Shown: in pieces, positions 2,034-5,860 of the stretch | Layout of the letters: each line of letters opens with the position of its first letter | How positions within the stretch are numbered: position 1 is the first letter of the stretch | DNA from: a virus | Taxonomy: Duplodnaviria; Heunggongvirae; Uroviricota; Caudoviricetes | Strand: one strand, 5' to 3' | DNA: 5,860 nucleotides | IMG/VR virus record: IMGVR_UViG_3300029121_000098 | Notes under the pieces: generated by a model | Seen by the model: only the letters and a program-made list of their open reading frames with translations | What the model was told of the DNA's origin: nothing | Database searches by the model: none | Program-made: the position numbers and the translations under genes

Positions 2034-2408
2034 ATGCTCATAGATTTGGTTTTACCTTACCCGCCGACGGTGAACACTTACTGGCGACGCCGTGGCAGCA
2101 CATATTTTATCTCGGAGGAGGGAAAGCGTTATCGCCGGGCTGTGGCGCTTATTGTTCGCCAGCAGCGGCTGAAATTAAGCCTGTCCGGAAGGCTGGCGAT
2201 AAAGGTGATTGCAGAGCCACCGGATAAGCGTCGTCGCGACCTGGACAATATCCTGAAAGCACCGCTGGATGCGCTGACGCATGCGGGAGTGTTAATGGAC
2301 GATGAGCAGTTTGATGAAATCAATATCGTTCGTGGTCAGCCAGTATCTGGTGGACGTATGGGGGTGAAGATTTACCCCATAATGCATGAAGAGCAGGTCA
2401 AAAAATGA
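2034..2408 (+). CDS. rusA: RusA-family crossover junction endodeoxyribonuclease (Holliday junction resolvase), 124 aa
   Basis: AGAGGTG Shine-Dalgarno upstream. The acidic core PDKRRRDLDNILKAPLDALTHAGVLMDDEQ aligns with the [30 protein letters not shown] region of E. coli RusA as recalled. Position between the nin-like genes and Q is typical. Confidence 0.82.
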   Translation: MLIDLVLPYPPTVNTYWRRRGSTYFISEEGKRYRRAVALIVRQQRLKLSLSGRLAIKVIAEPPDKRRRDLDNILKAPLDALTHAGVLMDDEQFDEINIVRGQPVSGGRMGVKIYPIMHEEQVKK

Positions 2409-3226
2409 AACTGGAAGATTTACCGAAATACTACTCCCCAAAATCCCCTTGCCTGACCGATGCATCGGCTTCAACGTCAAAAGATGCGCTGAGTATCACT
2501 GATGTGATGGCCGCGCAGGGCATGACACAGAATCGGGCTGAGATGGGGTTTTCTGCGTTCCTGGGGAAAATGGGCATCAGTATGAATGACAGGGCACGGG
2601 CAACAGAATTACTGGCAGATTATGCACTCAGTCGGTGCGATCGTGTGGCGGCGTTGAGAAAACTTCCGGCAGAAATAAAACCGGTAGTGATGCGCATTAT
2701 GGCTTCGTACGCTTTTGAGGATTATGCCCGCAGCGCAGCGAGTAAAAAGCAGTGCCCTTGTTGCTATGGGGAAAAATTTATTGAAAGCGTAGTTTTTACA
2801 AACAAGGTCCAGTATCCGGATGGTAAGCCGCCGGTATGGGCAAAGTGTACGAAAGGTGTGTATCCGTCTTACTGGGAAGAATGGAAAAAAGTCAGGGAGG
2901 TGGTAAAAGTTGCCTGTCCGGAGTGTGGCGGAAAGGGTGAGGTTTCCACCGTCTGTAAGGATTGCCGTGGGCGTGGTGTCGCCATTCACCGTGAAGAGTC
3001 GGTAAAACGTGGTATGCCTGTTATCAGAGACTGCCAGCGTTGTGGTGGTCGTGGCTATGAAAGACTACCATCAACGGAGGCATTTAATGCTATATGCGAG
3101 GTGACAAACCAGATAACACGCGCGTCATGGGAAAAAACAGTTAAGAAATTCTATGATGCGCTGGTGACCCGGTTTGATATTGAAGAAGCATGGGCTGAGC
3201 GGCAGTTAAAAAAGGTAACTAGGTAA
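2405..3226 (+). CDS. Q: Lambda-type late antiterminator Q, 273 aa, with an enlarged Cys-rich insertion
   Basis: ATGA overlap with the rusA stop. Blocks KYYSPKSP, TDVMAAQGMTQNRAEMGFSAFLGK, ASYAFEDYARSAA, CQRCGGRGYERLP and SWEKTVKKFYDALV...VTR align with lambda Q (KFHSPKSP, TDVMAAMGMAQSQAGFGMAAFCGK, ATFAYADYCRSAA, CGRCKGVGYSRMP, TWSRTVKPLYDALV...VTR) as I recall it. Sits immediately upstream of a pR'-like promoter. Confidence 0.88.
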   Translation: MKLEDLPKYYSPKSPCLTDASASTSKDALSITDVMAAQGMTQNRAEMGFSAFLGKMGISMNDRARATELLADYALSRCDRVAALRKLPAEIKPVVMRIMASYAFEDYARSAASKKQCPCCYGEKFIESVVFTNKVQYPDGKPPVWAKCTKGVYPSYWEEWKKVREVVKVACPECGGKGEVSTVCKDCRGRGVAIHREESVKRGMPVIRDCQRCGGRGYERLPSTEAFNAICEVTNQITRASWEKTVKKFYDALVTRFDIEEAWAERQLKKVTR

Positions 3227-3231
3227 CAAGG

Positions 3232-3275
3232 TTGATTTTTCCGGAATCTGTGGTAAATTCATCATAATGATGGGC
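3232..3275 (+). promoter_or_regulatory. pR'-like late promoter with a promoter-proximal sigma70 pause element (Q engagement region)
   Basis: -35 TTGATT (3232-3237), 16-nt spacer, -10 TAAATT (3254-3259), identical to the lambda pR' -10 as I recall it. It is followed by CATCATAATGATGGG, a -10-like repeat resembling the lambda pause-inducing ACGATGGG segment. Confidence 0.55.
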
Positions 3276-3307
3276 TTTTTATGCCTGACGTTAGAAGAGT
3301 TTCTACA

Positions 3308-3332
3308 ACCCGCCGCCGAGCGGGTTTTTTAT
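3308..3332 (+). terminator. tR'-like rho-independent terminator
   Basis: ACCCGC-CGCCGA-GCGGGT hairpin followed by TTTTTTATT, about 45-65 nt downstream of the predicted start site. Confidence 0.6.
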
Positions 3333-3369
3333 TGCGGAATTAATTACGGACCGTTATTATTCTGCTCCC

Positions 3370-3445
3370 GGCCCTTTAGCTCAGTGGTGAGAGCGAGCGA
3401 CTCATAATCGCCAGGTCGCTGGTTCAAATCCAGCAAGGGCCACCA
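3370..3445 (+). tRNA. ileZ: tRNA-Ile2 (anticodon CAT, presumably lysidine-modified to read AUA)
   Basis: Cloverleaf fits: acceptor GGCCCTT/AAGGGCC, D-arm GCTC...GAGC, anticodon loop CTCATAA, T-arm CGCTGG-TTCAAAT-CCAGC, encoded CCA. Near-identical to E. coli ileX as recalled; the C4:G69/C5:G68 acceptor pairs fit an Ile2 (TilS substrate) rather than an elongator Met. Confidence 0.85.
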
Positions 3446-3528
3446 TCACAAACCGCCATTAGCTTATCAGGAAGAGCAGACGACACGATAACAGGGTTGT
3501 TGGTGCGGGGGCGGGTCCCCGATGGCGG

Positions 3529-3605
3529 TCGTTGTTAGCTCAGCCGGACAGAGCAATTGCCTTCTAAGCAATCGGTCACTGGTTCGAATCCAGTACAGCG
3601 CGCCA
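3529..3605 (+). tRNA. argO: tRNA-Arg (anticodon UCU, reads AGA)
   Basis: D-arm GCTC-AGCCGGACA-GAGC, anticodon stem ATTGC/GCAAT with loop CTTCTAA, T-arm ACTGG-TTCGAAT-CCAGT, encoded CCA. The 1:72 acceptor pair is T:C in my fold, so the 5' boundary is uncertain by 1-2 nt. Confidence 0.75.
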
Positions 3606-3715
3606 TATTCATTCTTCCAGATTCCTTCCGGCAGAGCCTTATACTGGAATATACCTGGCTCAGGATATTGTTGAAAACATAATATGTTTGTCAAAAATAA
3701 AAGTTCTGTTAAGTA

Positions 3716-4069
3716 TTGATTGAGTGTTTGTTATACGGTCTAATGGTTTTTTCAGCATTAAATATTTATCATTCATATGGTGTGGGTAGAGTGAATATTG
3801 ATGAGGCGTCGGGGTGTTTCATCCTTAGGCAGCGTATTGATATAGTCAATGCAGCACGAGCAAAGGCCTTCAGCCGTTTGACAGTTTTGTTCTGTGCTCC
3901 TGATCGTCTTTCGGGAAGAGACGTTATTATTCTGAATAGTGATGCTATACAGAGGGTTTGCGATGAGTTCATGGTTGCTAATTCAGAATTATTTGCTCTT
4001 GTTCAGGAGTACAACAGAATAGCCAGGACCTGTGGTATGGATGAACTTCGGATTACTCATCTGGGGTAG
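3716..4069 (+). CDS. Hypothetical 117-aa ORF (TTG start, no clear RBS); possibly a gene remnant
   Basis: Only ORF longer than 100 aa in the roughly 1-kb AT-rich stretch after the tRNAs; same strand as all flanking genes. The first in-frame ATG (3743) also lacks a Shine-Dalgarno. No family recognised. Confidence 0.3.
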   Translation: MIECLLYGLMVFSALNIYHSYGVGRVNIDEASGCFILRQRIDIVNAARAKAFSRLTVLFCAPDRLSGRDVIILNSDAIQRVCDEFMVANSELFALVQEYNRIARTCGMDELRITHLG

Positions 4070-4533
4070 ATACATATCTGGATTATCACCTGTTACGGTA
4101 AAAAGTGATTGCTTACTGTTTTTGTGAATGGCATTGCAGCAGCCGGATAATATCAGTGCTGGCTGACGGTGTGCTGGTGGCGGGTGTGGTGGTTGTTGCT
4201 TTCCCGTTGCTGAAAAAGAAAACGCCAGACTGTTAGCCGGGTATCAGTTAGCGGGAGAAATTTTTAAATACTTCACAATTCAGGCGGTTGACTGTTCTCT
4301 GGTTTGCGGGGAGTTTGTTAAAAGAAACTGGCATGGTGAATCCCCCTGTGCGGAGGGGCAATCAGCGAGTAGGTATATGGGATAATCGCGGATTCAGGTG
4401 CTGGTACTGAATTCACCCGGCACCATGCACTTCAATAGATTCTCTCCACATTATGGATATTCTTTCAGAATATCCCACGCAGACTTTGTGTAAATGTTAA
4501 CAAATGTGCGTTTTATTTGATCTGATTCGCTGT

Positions 4534-4563
4534 TTGAGCGTCCAAAACAACGGTATATATAAT
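4534..4563 (+). promoter_or_regulatory. Candidate sigma70 promoter for the TolA-like lipoprotein genes
   Basis: -35 TTGAGC (4534-4539), 18-nt spacer, consensus -10 TATAAT (4558-4563), about 30 nt upstream of the 4593 start codon. Confidence 0.4.
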
Positions 4564-4592
4564 CCTTTACTATATGACATATGTGAGGAAAA

Positions 4593-5021
4593 ATGGGTTT
4601 TCGTAGCGCATCAATTCTTACGTTGATTATTAGTGGGATTATTATCGGGTGCACTGATGCTGTATCGACAAATTATCATGACCGTACATCATATTACTCC
4701 GATAAAGCAATAGAGACACAGTATGTGAGTTCATCTGAACGTACTTCTGATGTTAGTGAGGATATCCGTCTGTATGCCCATCAAATCAAGAGCGCCATCG
4801 AAAAACAGTTCGGGGATGCGAGTAAGTATTCAGGAAAAGAGTGTACACTGAGAATGCATATGGCCCCGAATGGCCTTCTACTGGAGGTTAAAAGAGAAAG
4901 TGGAGACCTCGATTTATGTCGTGAAGCGATGAATGCGATAAAGAATGCTGATATACCTGCCCCCCCTTCGCCGGAAGTATATAAAGTATTTCAAAATGGG
5001 GTGCTGGATTTTAAACCCTGA
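4593..5021 (+). CDS. Lipoprotein with C-terminal TolA domain III-like fold, 142 aa
   Basis: GAGGA Shine-Dalgarno before the ATG. Signal peptide MGFRSASILTLIISGIIIG with lipobox Cys (IIGC), then a Ser/Thr/Tyr-rich linker. The C-terminus IKSAIEKQFGDASKYSGKECTLRMHMAPNGLLLEVKRESGDLDLCREAMNAIKNADIPAPPSPEVYKVFQNGVLDFKP aligns almost residue for residue with the E. coli TolA C-terminus (QIKSAIESKFYDASSYAGKTCTLRIKLAPDGMLLDIKPEGGDPALCQAALAAAKLAKIPKPPSQAVYEVFKNAPLDFKP) as I recall it, including both cysteines. Confidence 0.8.
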   Translation: MGFRSASILTLIISGIIIGCTDAVSTNYHDRTSYYSDKAIETQYVSSSERTSDVSEDIRLYAHQIKSAIEKQFGDASKYSGKECTLRMHMAPNGLLLEVKRESGDLDLCREAMNAIKNADIPAPPSPEVYKVFQNGVLDFKP

Positions 5022-5171
5022 TATTTATTGTTTTGTAATAAACGGTTTCGGCTTAGGTTTGTTCTGACACAACTACGGCACTGAGCTAAATTTAGCGGAT
5101 AGTCAGCTCTGAGCCAGTGGCGGACGTAACAACTACTATTGCTGAGATTTTAATGGATTGAGGAGCAAGAA

Positions 5172-5567
5172 GTGGGATTAAAGAAAATCGTTATGTTGAC
5201 TTTTTGGGTCGGTTTTGTTGCGGGATGCACACCTTTACACCCTTCAGATTGCCACAAAACTACTGCTACAGGTAGTTGCAGTTCAGGACGCTGGGATGAT
5301 CAGGATGAATGGGGGGCGCAAGCGCGGGGAATCAGAGCTGCAATTAATGCCAAACTTGATGAGCCGCATAACTGGAAAGGGAAAAAATGCAGGTTGCATA
5401 TGGAATTCTCTCAGGATGGCACGGCGTTAAAAATATCTACCAGTAATGGTGATAAAGCCTATTGCGAAGCGATAAAGTCCGCAGCTCATAAAGCCAAATT
5501 TCCGGCCTTCAACAATCCGGAAGTCTACAGAGATTTTCAGAAATCTGGCTTTGACATGCGAGGTTAG
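5172..5567 (+). CDS. Second, divergent TolA domain III-like lipoprotein (paralogue), 131 aa
   Basis: GTG start 6 nt after a GAGGAG Shine-Dalgarno. Signal peptide MGLKKIVMLTFWVGFVAG with lipobox Cys (VAGC). C-terminus GIRAAINAKL...GKKCRLHMEFSQDGTALKISTSNGDKAYCEAIKSAAHKAKFPAFNNPEVYRDFQ aligns with the upstream paralogue and with TolA domain III, keeping both cysteines. Confidence 0.75.
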   Translation: MGLKKIVMLTFWVGFVAGCTPLHPSDCHKTTATGSCSSGRWDDQDEWGAQARGIRAAINAKLDEPHNWKGKKCRLHMEFSQDGTALKISTSNGDKAYCEAIKSAAHKAKFPAFNNPEVYRDFQKSGFDMRG

Positions 5568-5692
5568 CTCTTCAATTACTATATCTCATTCATAGCAAAC
5601 TGACAGATTTGATGATGTTCTATATACGAAACCTGTGATGTCAAGTCTGAGCTAATACAAATAAACATAATATCAGAGAAATACATTTTATT

Positions 5693-5716
5693 AGCTCGCT
5701 ACGGCGAGCTTTTTAT
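5693..5716 (+). terminator. Rho-independent terminator downstream of the lipoprotein pair
   Basis: AGCTCGC-TACG-GCGAGCT hairpin followed by TTTTAT. Confidence 0.5.
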
Positions 5717-5860
5717 ATTGCATCGTCTCCAGCATATATATCAATTAAGGCTCTGATTGATGTGTCTGGAAGCCTACACATAATAACTGGATTTGCCCCT
5801 ATATTTCCAGACATCTGTTATCACTTAACCCATTACAAGCCCGCTGCCGCAGATATTCCC

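What the first reader, a model, noticed from the sequence alone, without database searches (positions are those of the whole stretch)
5172..5567. Tandem, strongly diverged second TolA-III-like lipoprotein
The second gene keeps the lipobox, the two cysteines and the core of the TolA-III-like domain but has diverged heavily (terminal FQKSGFDMRG instead of FQNGVLDFKP) and has a different linker with extra cysteines. A tandem duplication followed by divergence suggests two specificities, for example different ligands or targets, or an arms-race pattern typical of exclusion and defence genes.
Basis: partly seen in the sequence, partly recalled or inferred. Interest (0 to 1): 0.7.

Follow-up and report, generated by a model that had tools for sequence, protein, structure and literature searches.

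The report
Second, unrelated-origin TolA-domain lipoprotein gene
The second gene is a real, intact and strongly conserved outer-membrane lipoprotein carrying a copy of the TolA "docking" domain, but it is a mobile gene cassette (also found on conjugative plasmids, on pO157 and in other enterobacterial chromosomes) parked next to an independently derived one. It is not a diverged tandem duplicate, and it most plausibly acts as a decoy for colicins and filamentous phages that must dock on TolA.

Summary
Window 5172-5567 (+) is an intact 131-aa ORF with a lipobox (VAGC), two extra cysteines, and a C-terminal domain that hits Pfam TolA_C (E 1.3e-14). That domain models as TolA domain III (pLDDT >95, rmsd 1.1 A to PDB 3QDP).

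The evolutionary reading does not hold.
- Gene 1 (4593-5021) is 60% identical to E. coli TolA-III. Gene 2 is about 31-34% identical to both gene 1 and TolA-III.
- In a tree the two are never sisters (0/100 bootstraps).
- Each occurs alone elsewhere. Gene 1 variants sit alone at the stx position of other lambdoid prophages.
- Gene 2 (module 5137-5568) is solo in Enterobacter, Citrobacter, Klebsiella and Serratia chromosomes. It is also solo after the nikB relaxase gene of I-complex conjugative plasmids and on pO157.
- Gene 2 is under strong purifying selection (dN/dS 0.04-0.23).
- Its "linker" (C-xPLHPSxCHKTTATGxC-SGRWDDQDEWG) is its most conserved part.
- No decay was seen: 157/157 viral-contig copies are intact.

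No published function was found. The best guess (about 0.4) is an outer-membrane-tethered, motor-less TolA-III mimic that non-productively captures TolA-dependent invaders (group A colicins, Ff/If1 g3p). The main rival is modulation of Tol-Pal. I rate this moderately interesting: an uncharacterised, widespread mobile-element lipoprotein family.

The parts
4534..4563 (+). Sigma-70-like promoter candidate (TTGAGC-18 nt-TATAAT), 30 nt upstream of gene 1. It could drive gene 1 and gene 2 independently of the phage late promoter.
   Evidence: Consensus scan, 10/12 match, the best in 3200-5860. Consensus match only; not shown to be functional.
4593..5021 (+). Gene 1: a 142-aa lipoprotein (lipobox IIGC, Cys20) with an S/T/Y-rich linker and a TolA-III domain 60.5% identical to E. 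coli TolA 334-421. The beta3 edge LDFKP is identical.
   Evidence: The module shared with solo-gene-1 prophages is 4647-5021. PGAP calls it 'tolA', sometimes as a pseudogene, because the TolA equivalog model matches only its C-terminus.
5137..5171 (+). Conserved leader of the gene 2 cassette, including the Shine-Dalgarno GAGGAG (5160-5165).
   Evidence: Homology with the pO157, IncI-complex plasmid, Citrobacter, Enterobacter, Serratia and Klebsiella copies begins at 5135-5142.
5172..5567 (+). Gene 2 CDS, 131 aa plus stop. This is the finding.
5172..5228 (+). Lipoprotein signal peptide: n-region KK, hydrophobic core, lipobox VAGC, Cys19. Thr at +2 implies sorting to the outer membrane (inferred from the Lol +2 rule).
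   Evidence: Read from the sequence. The lipobox Cys is conserved in at least 90% of 49 aligned small TolA-III proteins (A1).
5226..5312 (+). N-terminal segment of the mature protein, C-TPLHPSD-C27-HKTTATGS-C36-SSGRWDDQDEW.
   Evidence: Mean column entropy is 0.20 against 0.37 for the domain, and 15/29 against 16/84 positions are invariant among 83 unique family sequences. C27 and C36 are invariant down to 30%-identity relatives. AF2 pLDDT is about 50. No PDB sequence match.
5301..5564 (+). TolA domain III fold (residues 44-131): helix 46-61, strands 72-79 and 85-93, helix 95-107, helix 116-122, strand 124-130. The cysteine pair C73/C98 corresponds to TolA C363/C388.
   Evidence: AF2 block pLDDT is 95-98. 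Foldseek against PDB: 3qdp E 6.8e-9, rmsd 1.1 A, TM(target) 0.92; next are 2x9a, 3qdr and 1tol. phmmer against PDB: 1s62 E 5e-9.
5693..5720 (+). Intrinsic-terminator-like hairpin (AGCTCGC-TACG-GCGAGCT) followed by a T-run, downstream of gene 2. No such site lies between gene 1 and gene 2.

Best explanation
SHOWN. Gene 2 is an intact, selectively maintained gene for a small lipoprotein. It consists of a signal-peptidase-II signal, a 29-residue invariant Cys-loop segment and a TolA domain III fold. It belongs to an old, discrete family that moves horizontally as a roughly 430-bp single-gene cassette (window 5137-5568). The cassette occurs in enterobacterial chromosomes, in the nikA-nikB relaxase operon of I-complex conjugative plasmids, on pO157, and here in a Qin-like lambdoid prophage between the antiterminator Q/tRNA region and the lysis genes. 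In this prophage it lies 150 nt downstream of gene 1, an independently derived TolA-III lipoprotein that is a much closer copy of the host's own TolA-III. The pair is therefore a juxtaposition of two lineages, not a duplication.

INFERRED mechanism. [quoted passage not shown] This is where TolA-III normally meets its ligands. It has no TolA domains I and II, so it cannot couple to the TolQR motor. It would therefore act as a competitive, non-productive sink for ligands that dock on TolA-III by beta-strand augmentation. These ligands are the N1 domain of filamentous-phage g3p (Ff, If1) and the translocation domains of group A colicins. Capturing them at the outer membrane would block import and make the lysogen or plasmid host tolerant.

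Gene 1 has a native-like beta3 edge and ColA box, so it would mimic E. coli TolA closely. Gene 2 has both edges altered and carries the extra Cys-loop module, so it would cover a different ligand set. Stacking the two would broaden protection. Expression is probably from a promoter upstream of gene 1 and/or by Q-antiterminated late transcription.

Confidence is about 0.9 for the identity and evolutionary part and about 0.4 for the decoy mechanism.
For: Fold and family.

Independent origins:
- Identities are 60.5%, 33.8% and 31.2%.
- In the NJ tree the gene 1 clade has 99/100 support, the gene 2 plus Cys-loop clade 99/100, and the two as sisters 0/100.
- No full-length TolA among 1.84 billion representatives is more than about 38% identical to gene 2.

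Solo occurrences:
- Gene 2 in Citrobacter, Enterobacter, Serratia and Klebsiella chromosomes, each in a different non-phage neighbourhood.
- Gene 2 on pO157.
- Gene 2 in IncI1/B/O, IncK2/Z and IncI-gamma/K1 MPF_I plasmids, 67 nt after the relaxase gene.
- Gene 1 variants alone at the stx position of three other prophages.

Counts: gene 2 occurs in 1263 and gene 1 in 883 of 5426 complete E. coli genomes, with 525 gene 2 places on plasmids.

Selection:
- dN/dS is 0.04-0.23.
- dS between Citrobacter and Serratia is only 0.19, which indicates horizontal transfer.
- 157/157 copies in viral contigs are intact.

Circumstantial support for the decoy idea:
- Free TolA-III exported to the periplasm perturbs Tol function and causes leakage (PMC6195910, citing Wan & Baneyx 1998 and Levengood-Freyermuth 1993).
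- g3p, ColN and TolB all compete for the TolA beta3 edge, and ColA binds 375-LLDIKP-380 (PMC4339652; PMC7391070).
- I-complex plasmids make the pili used by If1, whose g3p uses TolA-C as coreceptor (PDB 2x9a title).
- A K. pneumoniae ColRNAI bacteriocin plasmid lineage carries an operon of a TolA-III lipoprotein plus a secreted TonB C-terminal-domain protein beside its colicin-like toxin, immunity and lysis genes.
- The neighbouring DUF3927 ORF hits a PHROG labelled 'TciB-like ... resistance to colicin'.
Against: There are no functional data for any member, and no paper was found in 10 full-text searches. There is no PADLOC hit.

Gene 2 differs from TolA at both known ligand edges (GFDMRG, ALKIST), so binding of g3p or colicins is unproven. 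The most conserved part is the Cys-loop segment, not the TolA-like surfaces. This hints that the key interaction may be something else.

Strong purifying selection and chromosomal, non-mobile-looking contexts in several genera fit a housekeeping envelope role as well as they fit defence. Only 1 of 50,697 sequenced phage genomes carries either gene.

The bacteriocin-plasmid example is one plasmid lineage and a different TolA-III subfamily. Outer-membrane sorting and periplasmic orientation are rule-based predictions.
Confidence: 0.42

Rival explanations
1. Tol-Pal modulator. The tethered TolA-III domain titrates the N-terminus of TolB (or CpoB) away from the real TolA. This locally weakens Pal mobilisation and the outer membrane-peptidoglycan connection. 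The benefit to the element would be easier outer-membrane disruption and particle release at lysis (prophage), vesiculation, or easier pilus and mating-channel assembly (nikAB operon of I-complex plasmids).
For: Gene 2 sits just upstream of the holin-lysozyme-Rz cassette in the late region (L001/L002), and in the relaxase operon on plasmids. Periplasmic TolA-III is used experimentally to make E. coli leak periplasmic proteins. TolB binds the same beta3 edge as g3p and ColN. Low dN/dS fits a conserved host target such as TolB.
Against: Constitutive chromosomal copies in Enterobacter, Citrobacter, Klebsiella and Serratia would be costly if they destabilised the envelope. TolA-III-TolB affinity is low (Kd 40-200 uM). 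Gene 2's beta3 edge differs from TolA. A promoter-gene-terminator 'moron' layout suggests expression in the lysogen rather than only at lysis.
Confidence: 0.25
2. The conserved Cys-loop segment is the business end. The protein binds an outer-membrane protein from the periplasmic side (a porin, TolC, BtuB, or a pilus or secretin component) in the manner of T5 Llp or Cor. The TolA-III fold would then serve as a scaffold or a second contact, blocking a receptor or translocon rather than mimicking TolA.
For: The N-terminal 29 residues are more conserved than the domain, and C27/C36 are invariant across the extended subfamily. The subfamily forms a deep, separate clade. Small lipoproteins encoded by mobile elements that block receptors are an established class (T5 Llp preprint listed).
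Against: No similarity of the segment to anything solved. AF2 gives it no confident structure or contact with the domain. Many other TolA-III lipoproteins lack the Cys-loop yet have the same overall architecture, so the TolA-III domain is the common denominator.
Confidence: 0.18
3. Gene 2 arose by tandem duplication of gene 1 inside the prophage and diverged rapidly under an arms race.
For: Adjacency, same strand, same architecture (lipobox plus TolA-III), and 29% identity. The pair is fixed with 150-nt spacing in one widespread prophage lineage.
Against: Gene 1 is closer to host TolA than to gene 2. Sister grouping is 0/100. Both genes occur alone elsewhere, and homology breakpoints hug each gene. 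Gene 2 dN/dS is 0.04-0.23 with orthologues 85-91% identical across genera. There is no hypervariable face.
Confidence: 0.03
4. Gene 2 is a decaying or non-functional passenger.
For: A few frameshifted or truncated variants exist in the databases (for example P0081 and P0088; P0169-P0172). The window's prophage is itself damaged by IS2.
Against: 112 of 121 cluster representatives keep the exact 113-aa mature length. 157/157 viral-contig copies are intact. Purifying selection is strong. The RBS and start are conserved.
Confidence: 0.03

Closest known systems
E. coli TolA domain III (PDB 1TOL, 1S62, 2X9A, 3QDP/3QDR)
   Same: Same fold (rmsd 1.1 A over 84-86 columns). Same cysteine pair. The strand-helix order matches. 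Pfam PF06519 is hit above the cut-off.
   Different: Only about 34% identity for gene 2. There is no transmembrane domain I, no helical domain II and no tol-pal operon context. The N-terminus is a lipoprotein signal plus a Cys-loop. The ligand edges are altered: GFDMRG for LDFKP, and ALKIST for LLDIKP. It scores below both NCBIfam TolA equivalog cut-offs.
Gene 1 of the same window (4593-5021) and its prophage variants
   Same: Small lipoprotein with a C-terminal TolA-III domain, placed in the Q-to-lysis 'moron' slot. Both genes fall in PHROG 5772, function unknown.
   Different: Separate lineage. Gene 1 is 60% identical to TolA-III, has an unconserved S/T/Y-rich linker without cysteines, is restricted to E. 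coli/Shigella prophages (46 clusters) and evolves faster (dN/dS 0.22-0.37). Gene 2 is multi-genus (about 370-415 clusters), occurs on plasmids and chromosomes, and has dN/dS of 0.04-0.23.
Recombinant periplasmic TolA-III (Levengood-Freyermuth et al. 1993; Wan & Baneyx 1998, as cited in PMC6195910)
   Same: A TolA-III domain present in the periplasm without connection to TolQR. This is the experimental precedent that such a domain interferes with Tol-dependent processes.
   Different: It is soluble, overproduced and uses the native E. coli sequence. The natural proteins here are lipid-anchored, divergent and presumably made at low level. The statement that it confers colicin and phage tolerance rests on my recollection of the 1993 paper, which the library does not hold.
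Exclusion lipoproteins of mobile elements (T5 Llp, phi80/N15 Cor, F TraT)
   Same: Small outer-membrane lipoproteins, encoded by phages or plasmids, that protect the carrier cell against incoming phage or DNA. They are encoded as accessory genes.
   Different: No sequence or fold relationship. They act on outer-membrane receptors (FhuA, OmpA). The protein here would mimic a periplasmic coreceptor domain instead. No PADLOC or defence-family hit.
TolA-III lipoprotein plus secreted TonB-CTD operon on K. pneumoniae ColRNAI bacteriocin plasmids (for example NZ_CP031718)
   Same: A stand-alone lipoprotein (LLLTAC) with a TolA-III domain on a mobile element. It implies a link between such domains and bacteriocin traffic.
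   Different: Different TolA-III subfamily: about 27% identity, TolA-like NAPLDFRP end, no Cys-loop. It is paired with a TonB-domain protein. It is also uncharacterised; PMC10269471 only notes its presence.

Membership tests
Pfam PF06519 TolA C-terminal domain | Profile score above the gathering threshold | tested here: met
   54.6 bits against 25, E 1.3e-14, residues 44-125.
Pfam PF06519 TolA C-terminal domain | TolA-III alpha/beta fold (three-stranded sheet packed by helices) | tested here: met
   AF2 pLDDT 95-98 for residues 50-131. Foldseek top hits are all TolA-III, rmsd 1.1 A, TM 0.92.
Pfam PF06519 TolA C-terminal domain | Conserved cysteine pair (E. coli C363/C388) | tested here: met
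   C73 and C98 are invariant in A1 and align with TolA GKTC and ALCQ.
Canonical TolA (NCBIfam TIGR02794 / NF007065 equivalogs) | Whole-protein score above the equivalog cut-off | tested here: not met
   47.2 against 59.45 and 53.7 against 213. Only the last ~80 positions of the models match.
Canonical TolA (NCBIfam TIGR02794 / NF007065 equivalogs) | N-terminal transmembrane anchor (domain I) and long helical domain II | tested here: not met
   The protein is 131 aa in total. Its N-terminus is a lipoprotein signal, and only 29 residues lie between Cys19 and the domain.
Canonical TolA (NCBIfam TIGR02794 / NF007065 equivalogs) | Encoded in the ybgC-tolQRA-tolB-pal-cpoB operon | tested here: not met
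   It lies in a prophage late region. Elsewhere it is solo in unrelated neighbourhoods or after nikB.
Bacterial lipoproteins (signal peptidase II substrates) | Positively charged n-region, hydrophobic core, lipobox [LVI][ASTVI][GAS]C | tested here: met
   MGLKK-IVMLTFWVGF-VAGC. The Cys is conserved in at least 90% of 49 small TolA-III proteins.
Bacterial lipoproteins (signal peptidase II substrates) | Actual lipidation and outer-membrane localisation | not testable with these tools
   Outer-membrane sorting is predicted only from the absence of Asp at +2 (Thr20).
In-situ tandem paralogue pair | The two copies are each other's closest relatives | tested here: not met
   Gene 1 to TolA is 60.5% against gene 1 to gene 2 at 31.2%. 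Sister grouping is 0/100.
In-situ tandem paralogue pair | The copies co-distribute, and solo copies are derived losses | tested here: not met
   Gene 2 is solo in four other genera, in I-complex plasmids and on pO157. Gene 1 variants are solo in 3/3 inspected prophages. Module boundaries are at 5137-5568 and 4647-5021.
Known anti-phage defence or exclusion families (PADLOC; PHROG functional categories) | Profile match to a described defence or exclusion protein | tested here: not met
   No PADLOC hit. PHROG 5772 is 'unknown function'.
TolA-ligand decoy (functional class proposed here) | Binds g3p-N1, group A colicin T-domains or the TolB N-terminus, and confers tolerance | not testable with these tools
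   Only edge-sequence comparison was possible. Gene 1 keeps LDFKP; gene 2 has GFDMRG.

The most novel reading that the evidence does not exclude
Stand-alone, lipid-anchored copies of the Tol/Ton 'docking' domains may be an unrecognised, widespread class of resistance determinants carried by mobile elements. The class would include TolA-III lipoproteins, and on some bacteriocin plasmids a secreted TonB C-terminal domain as well. They would work as receptor-domain decoys against Tol/Ton-dependent bacteriocins and pilus-specific filamentous phages. This prophage would stack two evolutionarily independent decoys (a close TolA mimic and the Cys-loop family) to widen its protective spectrum. I-complex plasmids would co-express one with their relaxase genes to shield piliated donors from If1-type phages.
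Probability: 0.3. Interest if true: 0.75.

Novelty: new variant of a known kind. Interest (0 to 1): 0.5.

Why it matters
If the decoy idea is right, about a quarter of complete E. coli genomes carry a cheap, single-gene shield against group A colicins and filamentous phages, and nobody has assayed it. The carriers include pO157 and many I-complex resistance plasmids. Such a shield would affect colicin- and phage-based therapeutics, phage display hosts and plasmid ecology. It would also add 'coreceptor-domain mimicry in the periplasm' to the known ways mobile elements exclude competitors.

If these proteins instead tune Tol-Pal, they are natural tools for probing TolB-Pal mobilisation and vesiculation.

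There are also annotation errors to correct. PGAP labels gene 1 as 'tolA' or as a tolA pseudogene. It also starts gene 2 at an internal ATG, which removes the charged n-region of the signal peptide.

Tried and rejected
No study of these proteins was found. The nikB search returned only author-name noise.
- Levengood-Freyermuth 1993 (PMC196117) is not held, so its colicin and phage tolerance result is cited from memory only.
- A ciprofloxacin-induction paper mentions a 32-fold induced 'TolA'-type prophage gene, EDL933_2012. I looked at 49 kb of EDL933 (1.87-1.92 Mb) and found no TolA-type gene there, so I do not use it as expression evidence.
- The third homologue search, with an alignment of distant Cys-loop relatives, mostly returned the same close family. 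It did not deepen the alignment, so I ran no further search on the N-terminal segment.
- A phmmer search of the 32-aa Cys-loop segment against PDB found nothing.
- PADLOC found nothing.
- tblastn against 50,697 phage genomes found only mEp460_ev081, so a phage-by-phage 'single versus paired' survey had to rely on E. coli genomes, plasmids and IMG/VR.
- I looked for a hypervariable ligand face in gene 2. The variable sites are scattered.
- Considered and rejected: that gene 2 is a recent capture from any sampled TolA (at most about 38% identity to full-length TolAs), and that the longer N-terminal extensions annotated in some homologues are real (an in-frame stop precedes the GTG in the window, and the SD and start are conserved).
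Full report
WHAT IS THERE

The window is the right-hand part of a Qin-like lambdoid prophage of E. coli. In order it carries:
- hokD (2-157), rem, and ydfU/DUF968 (972-2021);
- rusA (2034-2408) and antiterminator Q (2405-3226);
- a tR'-like terminator (3307-3326);
- tRNA(CAT) at 3370-3445 and tRNA-Arg(TCT) at 3529-3605;
- a 117-aa ORF and a DUF3927 ORF;
- gene 1 (4593-5021), gene 2 (5172-5567) and a terminator-like hairpin (5693-5710);
- the end of an IS2 (from 5788).

The same arrangement without IS2 is in phage mEp460_ev081, where the holin-lysozyme-Rz genes follow directly.

CHECKING THE OBSERVATION

Gene 2 is a 131-aa ORF starting at GTG 5172. GAGGAG lies 6 nt upstream. At the same aligned position the pO157 and Klebsiella homologues have ATG, and the Citrobacter, Enterobacter and Serratia homologues have GTG. 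An in-frame stop precedes the GTG in the window. RefSeq starts the protein at ATG 5193 (WP_001348108.1), which removes the Lys-Lys n-region. I consider 5172 the real start.

The N-terminus, MGLKKIVMLTFWVGFVAGC, is a textbook lipoprotein signal. Residues 44-125 hit Pfam TolA_C (E 1.3e-14) and E. coli TolA-III structures (E 5e-9).

An AlphaFold2 model built on a 49-sequence alignment has pLDDT 95-98 for residues 50-131. Foldseek against the PDB returns only TolA-III entries at the top (3QDP, 2X9A, 3QDR, 1TOL). The best has rmsd 1.1 A and a target-normalised TM-score of 0.92.

The two domain cysteines (C73, C98) are invariant. The two additional cysteines (C27, C36) are real. Gene 1 and gene 2 share 29% identity overall.

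THE PAIR IS NOT A DIVERGED TANDEM DUPLICATION

1. Over the 88-residue domain, gene 1 is 60.5% identical to E. coli TolA 334-421. Gene 2 is 33.8% identical to TolA and 31.2% identical to gene 1.

2. I built a neighbour-joining tree of 47 TolA-III domains.
- The gene 1 family has 99/100 bootstrap support.
- Gene 2 plus its Cys-loop relatives has 99/100.
- The two are never exclusive sisters (0/100).
- Gene 1's nearest outsider is E. coli TolA-III.

3. Gene 2 orthologues are single genes in ordinary chromosomal neighbourhoods of Citrobacter, Enterobacter, Serratia and Klebsiella. Their mature parts are 85-91% identical to gene 2. Each lies in a different neighbourhood, and none has a gene 1 nearby.

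4. In E. coli, an 88%-identical gene 2 sits alone on pO157, next to a nikB remnant. It also sits 67 nt after the relaxase gene in conjugative I-complex plasmids: IncI1/B/O, IncK2/Z and IncI-gamma/K1, all MPF_I. About 600 PLSDB plasmids carry this type.

5. Gene 1 variants (about 82% nucleotide identity) sit alone in three of three inspected prophages. They occupy the Q-tRNA-[x]-esterase-lysis slot where Stx phages carry stx.

6. DNA homology with the solo copies is confined to 5137-5568 for gene 2 and 4647-5021 for gene 1.

Counts in 5,426 complete E. coli genomes:
- Gene 2 is in 1,263 genomes. Of the matching records, 782 are at least 99% identical and 518 are 80-90% identical, and 525 of the 1,350 places lie on plasmids.
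- Gene 1 is in 883 genomes. Of the matching records, 782 are at least 99% identical and 97 are 80-90% identical.
- The adjacent pair is in at least 771 genomes.

The pair is thus one successful prophage module. It joined two independent lineages.

GENE 2 IS NOT FAST-EVOLVING OR DECAYING

- Pairwise Nei-Gojobori dN/dS for the mature part is 0.04-0.23. Gene 1 is more relaxed, at 0.22-0.37.
- dS between the Citrobacter and Serratia copies is only 0.19. That is low for two such distant genera and, together with the different neighbourhoods, suggests horizontal spread of the cassette.
- Of 121 family representatives, 112 keep the exact 113-residue mature length.
- In IMG/VR, 157 of 157 copies of gene 2 are intact, against 155 of 157 for gene 1. 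Spacing is 150 nt in 155 loci and 1,349 nt in two.
- Variable sites are scattered, with no hypervariable face.

Its entropy is 0.20 against 0.37 for the domain, and 15 of 29 positions are invariant. C27 and C36 are invariant in relatives down to 30% identity. It defines a Cys-loop subfamily within a large, diverse population of 110-160-aa TolA-III lipoproteins of Gammaproteobacteria. AF2 gives the segment no confident structure, and it matches nothing in the PDB.

HOW IT PROBABLY WORKS

Shown: a lipoprotein signal, a conserved Cys-loop and a TolA-III fold. There is no TolA domain I or II and no tol-pal context.

From the literature:
- TolA-III is the hub on which TolB's N-terminus, Ff/If1 g3p-N1 and colicin N dock by beta-strand augmentation at beta3 (D418, K420). 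Colicin A docks at 375-LLDIKP-380 (PMC7391070; PMC4339652).
- TolA-III exported on its own into the periplasm perturbs the envelope (PMC6195910).

A motor-less TolA-III tethered at the outer membrane is therefore well placed to capture such ligands unproductively. Gene 1 keeps LDFKP and LLEVKR and should mimic E. coli TolA closely. Gene 2 has GFDMRG and ALKIST and may bind other partners.

The carriers fit a protective role:
- I-complex plasmids make the pili that If1 uses, and If1 g3p uses TolA-C as coreceptor (PDB 2X9A).
- A K. pneumoniae bacteriocin plasmid lineage carries a TolA-III lipoprotein together with a secreted TonB C-terminal-domain protein, beside its colicin-like toxin genes.
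- The neighbouring DUF3927 ORF falls in a PHROG labelled 'resistance to colicin'.

I put about 0.4 on this decoy mechanism and about 0.25 on deliberate Tol-Pal modulation (lysis, vesicles or mating). I put about 0.18 on a receptor-blocking role driven by the Cys-loop. Nothing here tests binding.

Expression is also inferred. A good promoter-like site (4534-4563) precedes gene 1, no terminator separates the genes, and a terminator-like hairpin follows gene 2. This is the classic moron layout, inside the Q-dependent late transcription unit.

COMPARISON WITH WHAT IS KNOWN

Gene 2 is a member of the TolA C-terminal domain family by profile, fold and cysteine pair. It is not a TolA: it falls below both equivalog cut-offs, lacks domains I and II, and has the wrong genomic context.

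Functionally it may resemble exclusion lipoproteins (Llp, Cor, TraT), but it is not related to them and has no PADLOC match. PHROG 5772, which holds both genes, is 'unknown function'. I found no publication on these proteins. One paper merely notes TolA-like genes on a cloacin-type plasmid.

VERDICT

The duplication and arms-race interpretation is refuted. 'Two specificities' remains open. The family is catalogued but uncharacterised, and its architecture departs from canonical TolA in the defining features. I therefore rate it as a new variant of a known kind, with moderate interest (0.5). The stronger reading is that mobile elements deploy Tol/Ton docking-domain decoys. It has roughly a 0.3 chance and would be clearly interesting.

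Noticed in passing
window 4302-4482 (+): Rfam match to the sRNA family STnc100 (84.9 bits, gathering score 47), about 110 nt upstream of gene 1. Its first ~50 nt (4310-4359) recur 4-5 times in the late regions of related prophages L018 and L019.
   Followed up: partly
window 5788-5860: Terminal inverted repeat and end of IS2. Compared with mEp460_ev081 (L001), the insertion lies about 31 nt upstream of the holin start. The lysis cassette is therefore separated from the late promoter, and the prophage is probably lysis-defective.
   Followed up: partly
window 4105-4236 (+), and L020 36439-37034: The 43-aa DUF3927 ORF hits PHROG 1470, 'TciB-like inhibition of cell division or resistance to colicin'. 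In an EDL933 prophage the equivalent post-tRNA slot holds a TerB-family gene plus DUF3927. This is a possible cluster of envelope and colicin-related morons.
   Followed up: partly
L014 1512-2245 (-), K. pneumoniae plasmid NZ_CP031718; same in L184 and L185: A ColRNAI bacteriocin plasmid lineage carries a two-gene operon: a 123-aa TolA-III lipoprotein (LLLTAC...NAPLDFRP) and a 121-aa secreted TonB C-terminal-domain protein. The operon is divergent from a colicin-like tRNase toxin, immunity and lysis cluster. About 690 mostly Klebsiella plasmids carry distant TolA-III genes.
   Followed up: partly
L016 6965-7396, L017 5965-6396, L021 and L022 3465-3896, L012 5964-6395: The gene 2-type cassette is the gene immediately after the nikA-nikB relaxase genes in I-complex (IncI1/B/O, K2/Z, I-gamma/K1) conjugative plasmids. 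It survives beside a nikB remnant on pO157, upstream of toxB.
   Followed up: partly
window 4593-5021 and 5172-5194; L002 8348-8608: Annotation problems in RefSeq. Gene 1 is named 'cell envelope integrity protein TolA', and in some genomes it is flagged as an N-terminally truncated tolA pseudogene although the lipoprotein ORF is intact. Gene 2 is started at ATG 5193, which loses the charged n-region.
   Followed up: yes
window 3370-3445 and 3529-3605: ARAGORN calls tRNA-Met(CAT). PGAP annotates the corresponding tRNA in the related prophage of strain STLEFF_47 (L002) as tRNA-Ile (lysidine type). It is followed by tRNA-Arg(TCT). This is the rare-codon tRNA pair typical of Stx-phage late regions. 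Gene 1 variants occupy the stx position downstream of this pair in other prophages.
   Followed up: no
IMG/VR loci among L024-L183 (two with 1349-nt spacing; L069; L099): Two viral contigs have a ~1.2-kb insertion between gene 1 and gene 2. One contig has a frameshifted gene 1 and one a disrupted gene 1. Gene 2 is intact in all of them.
   Followed up: no
L009 5957-7736 (Serratia marcescens): The solo gene 2 orthologue lies next to a GmrSD-type (DUF262/PF03235) gene and a HEPN-domain gene, which are likely defence genes.
   Followed up: no
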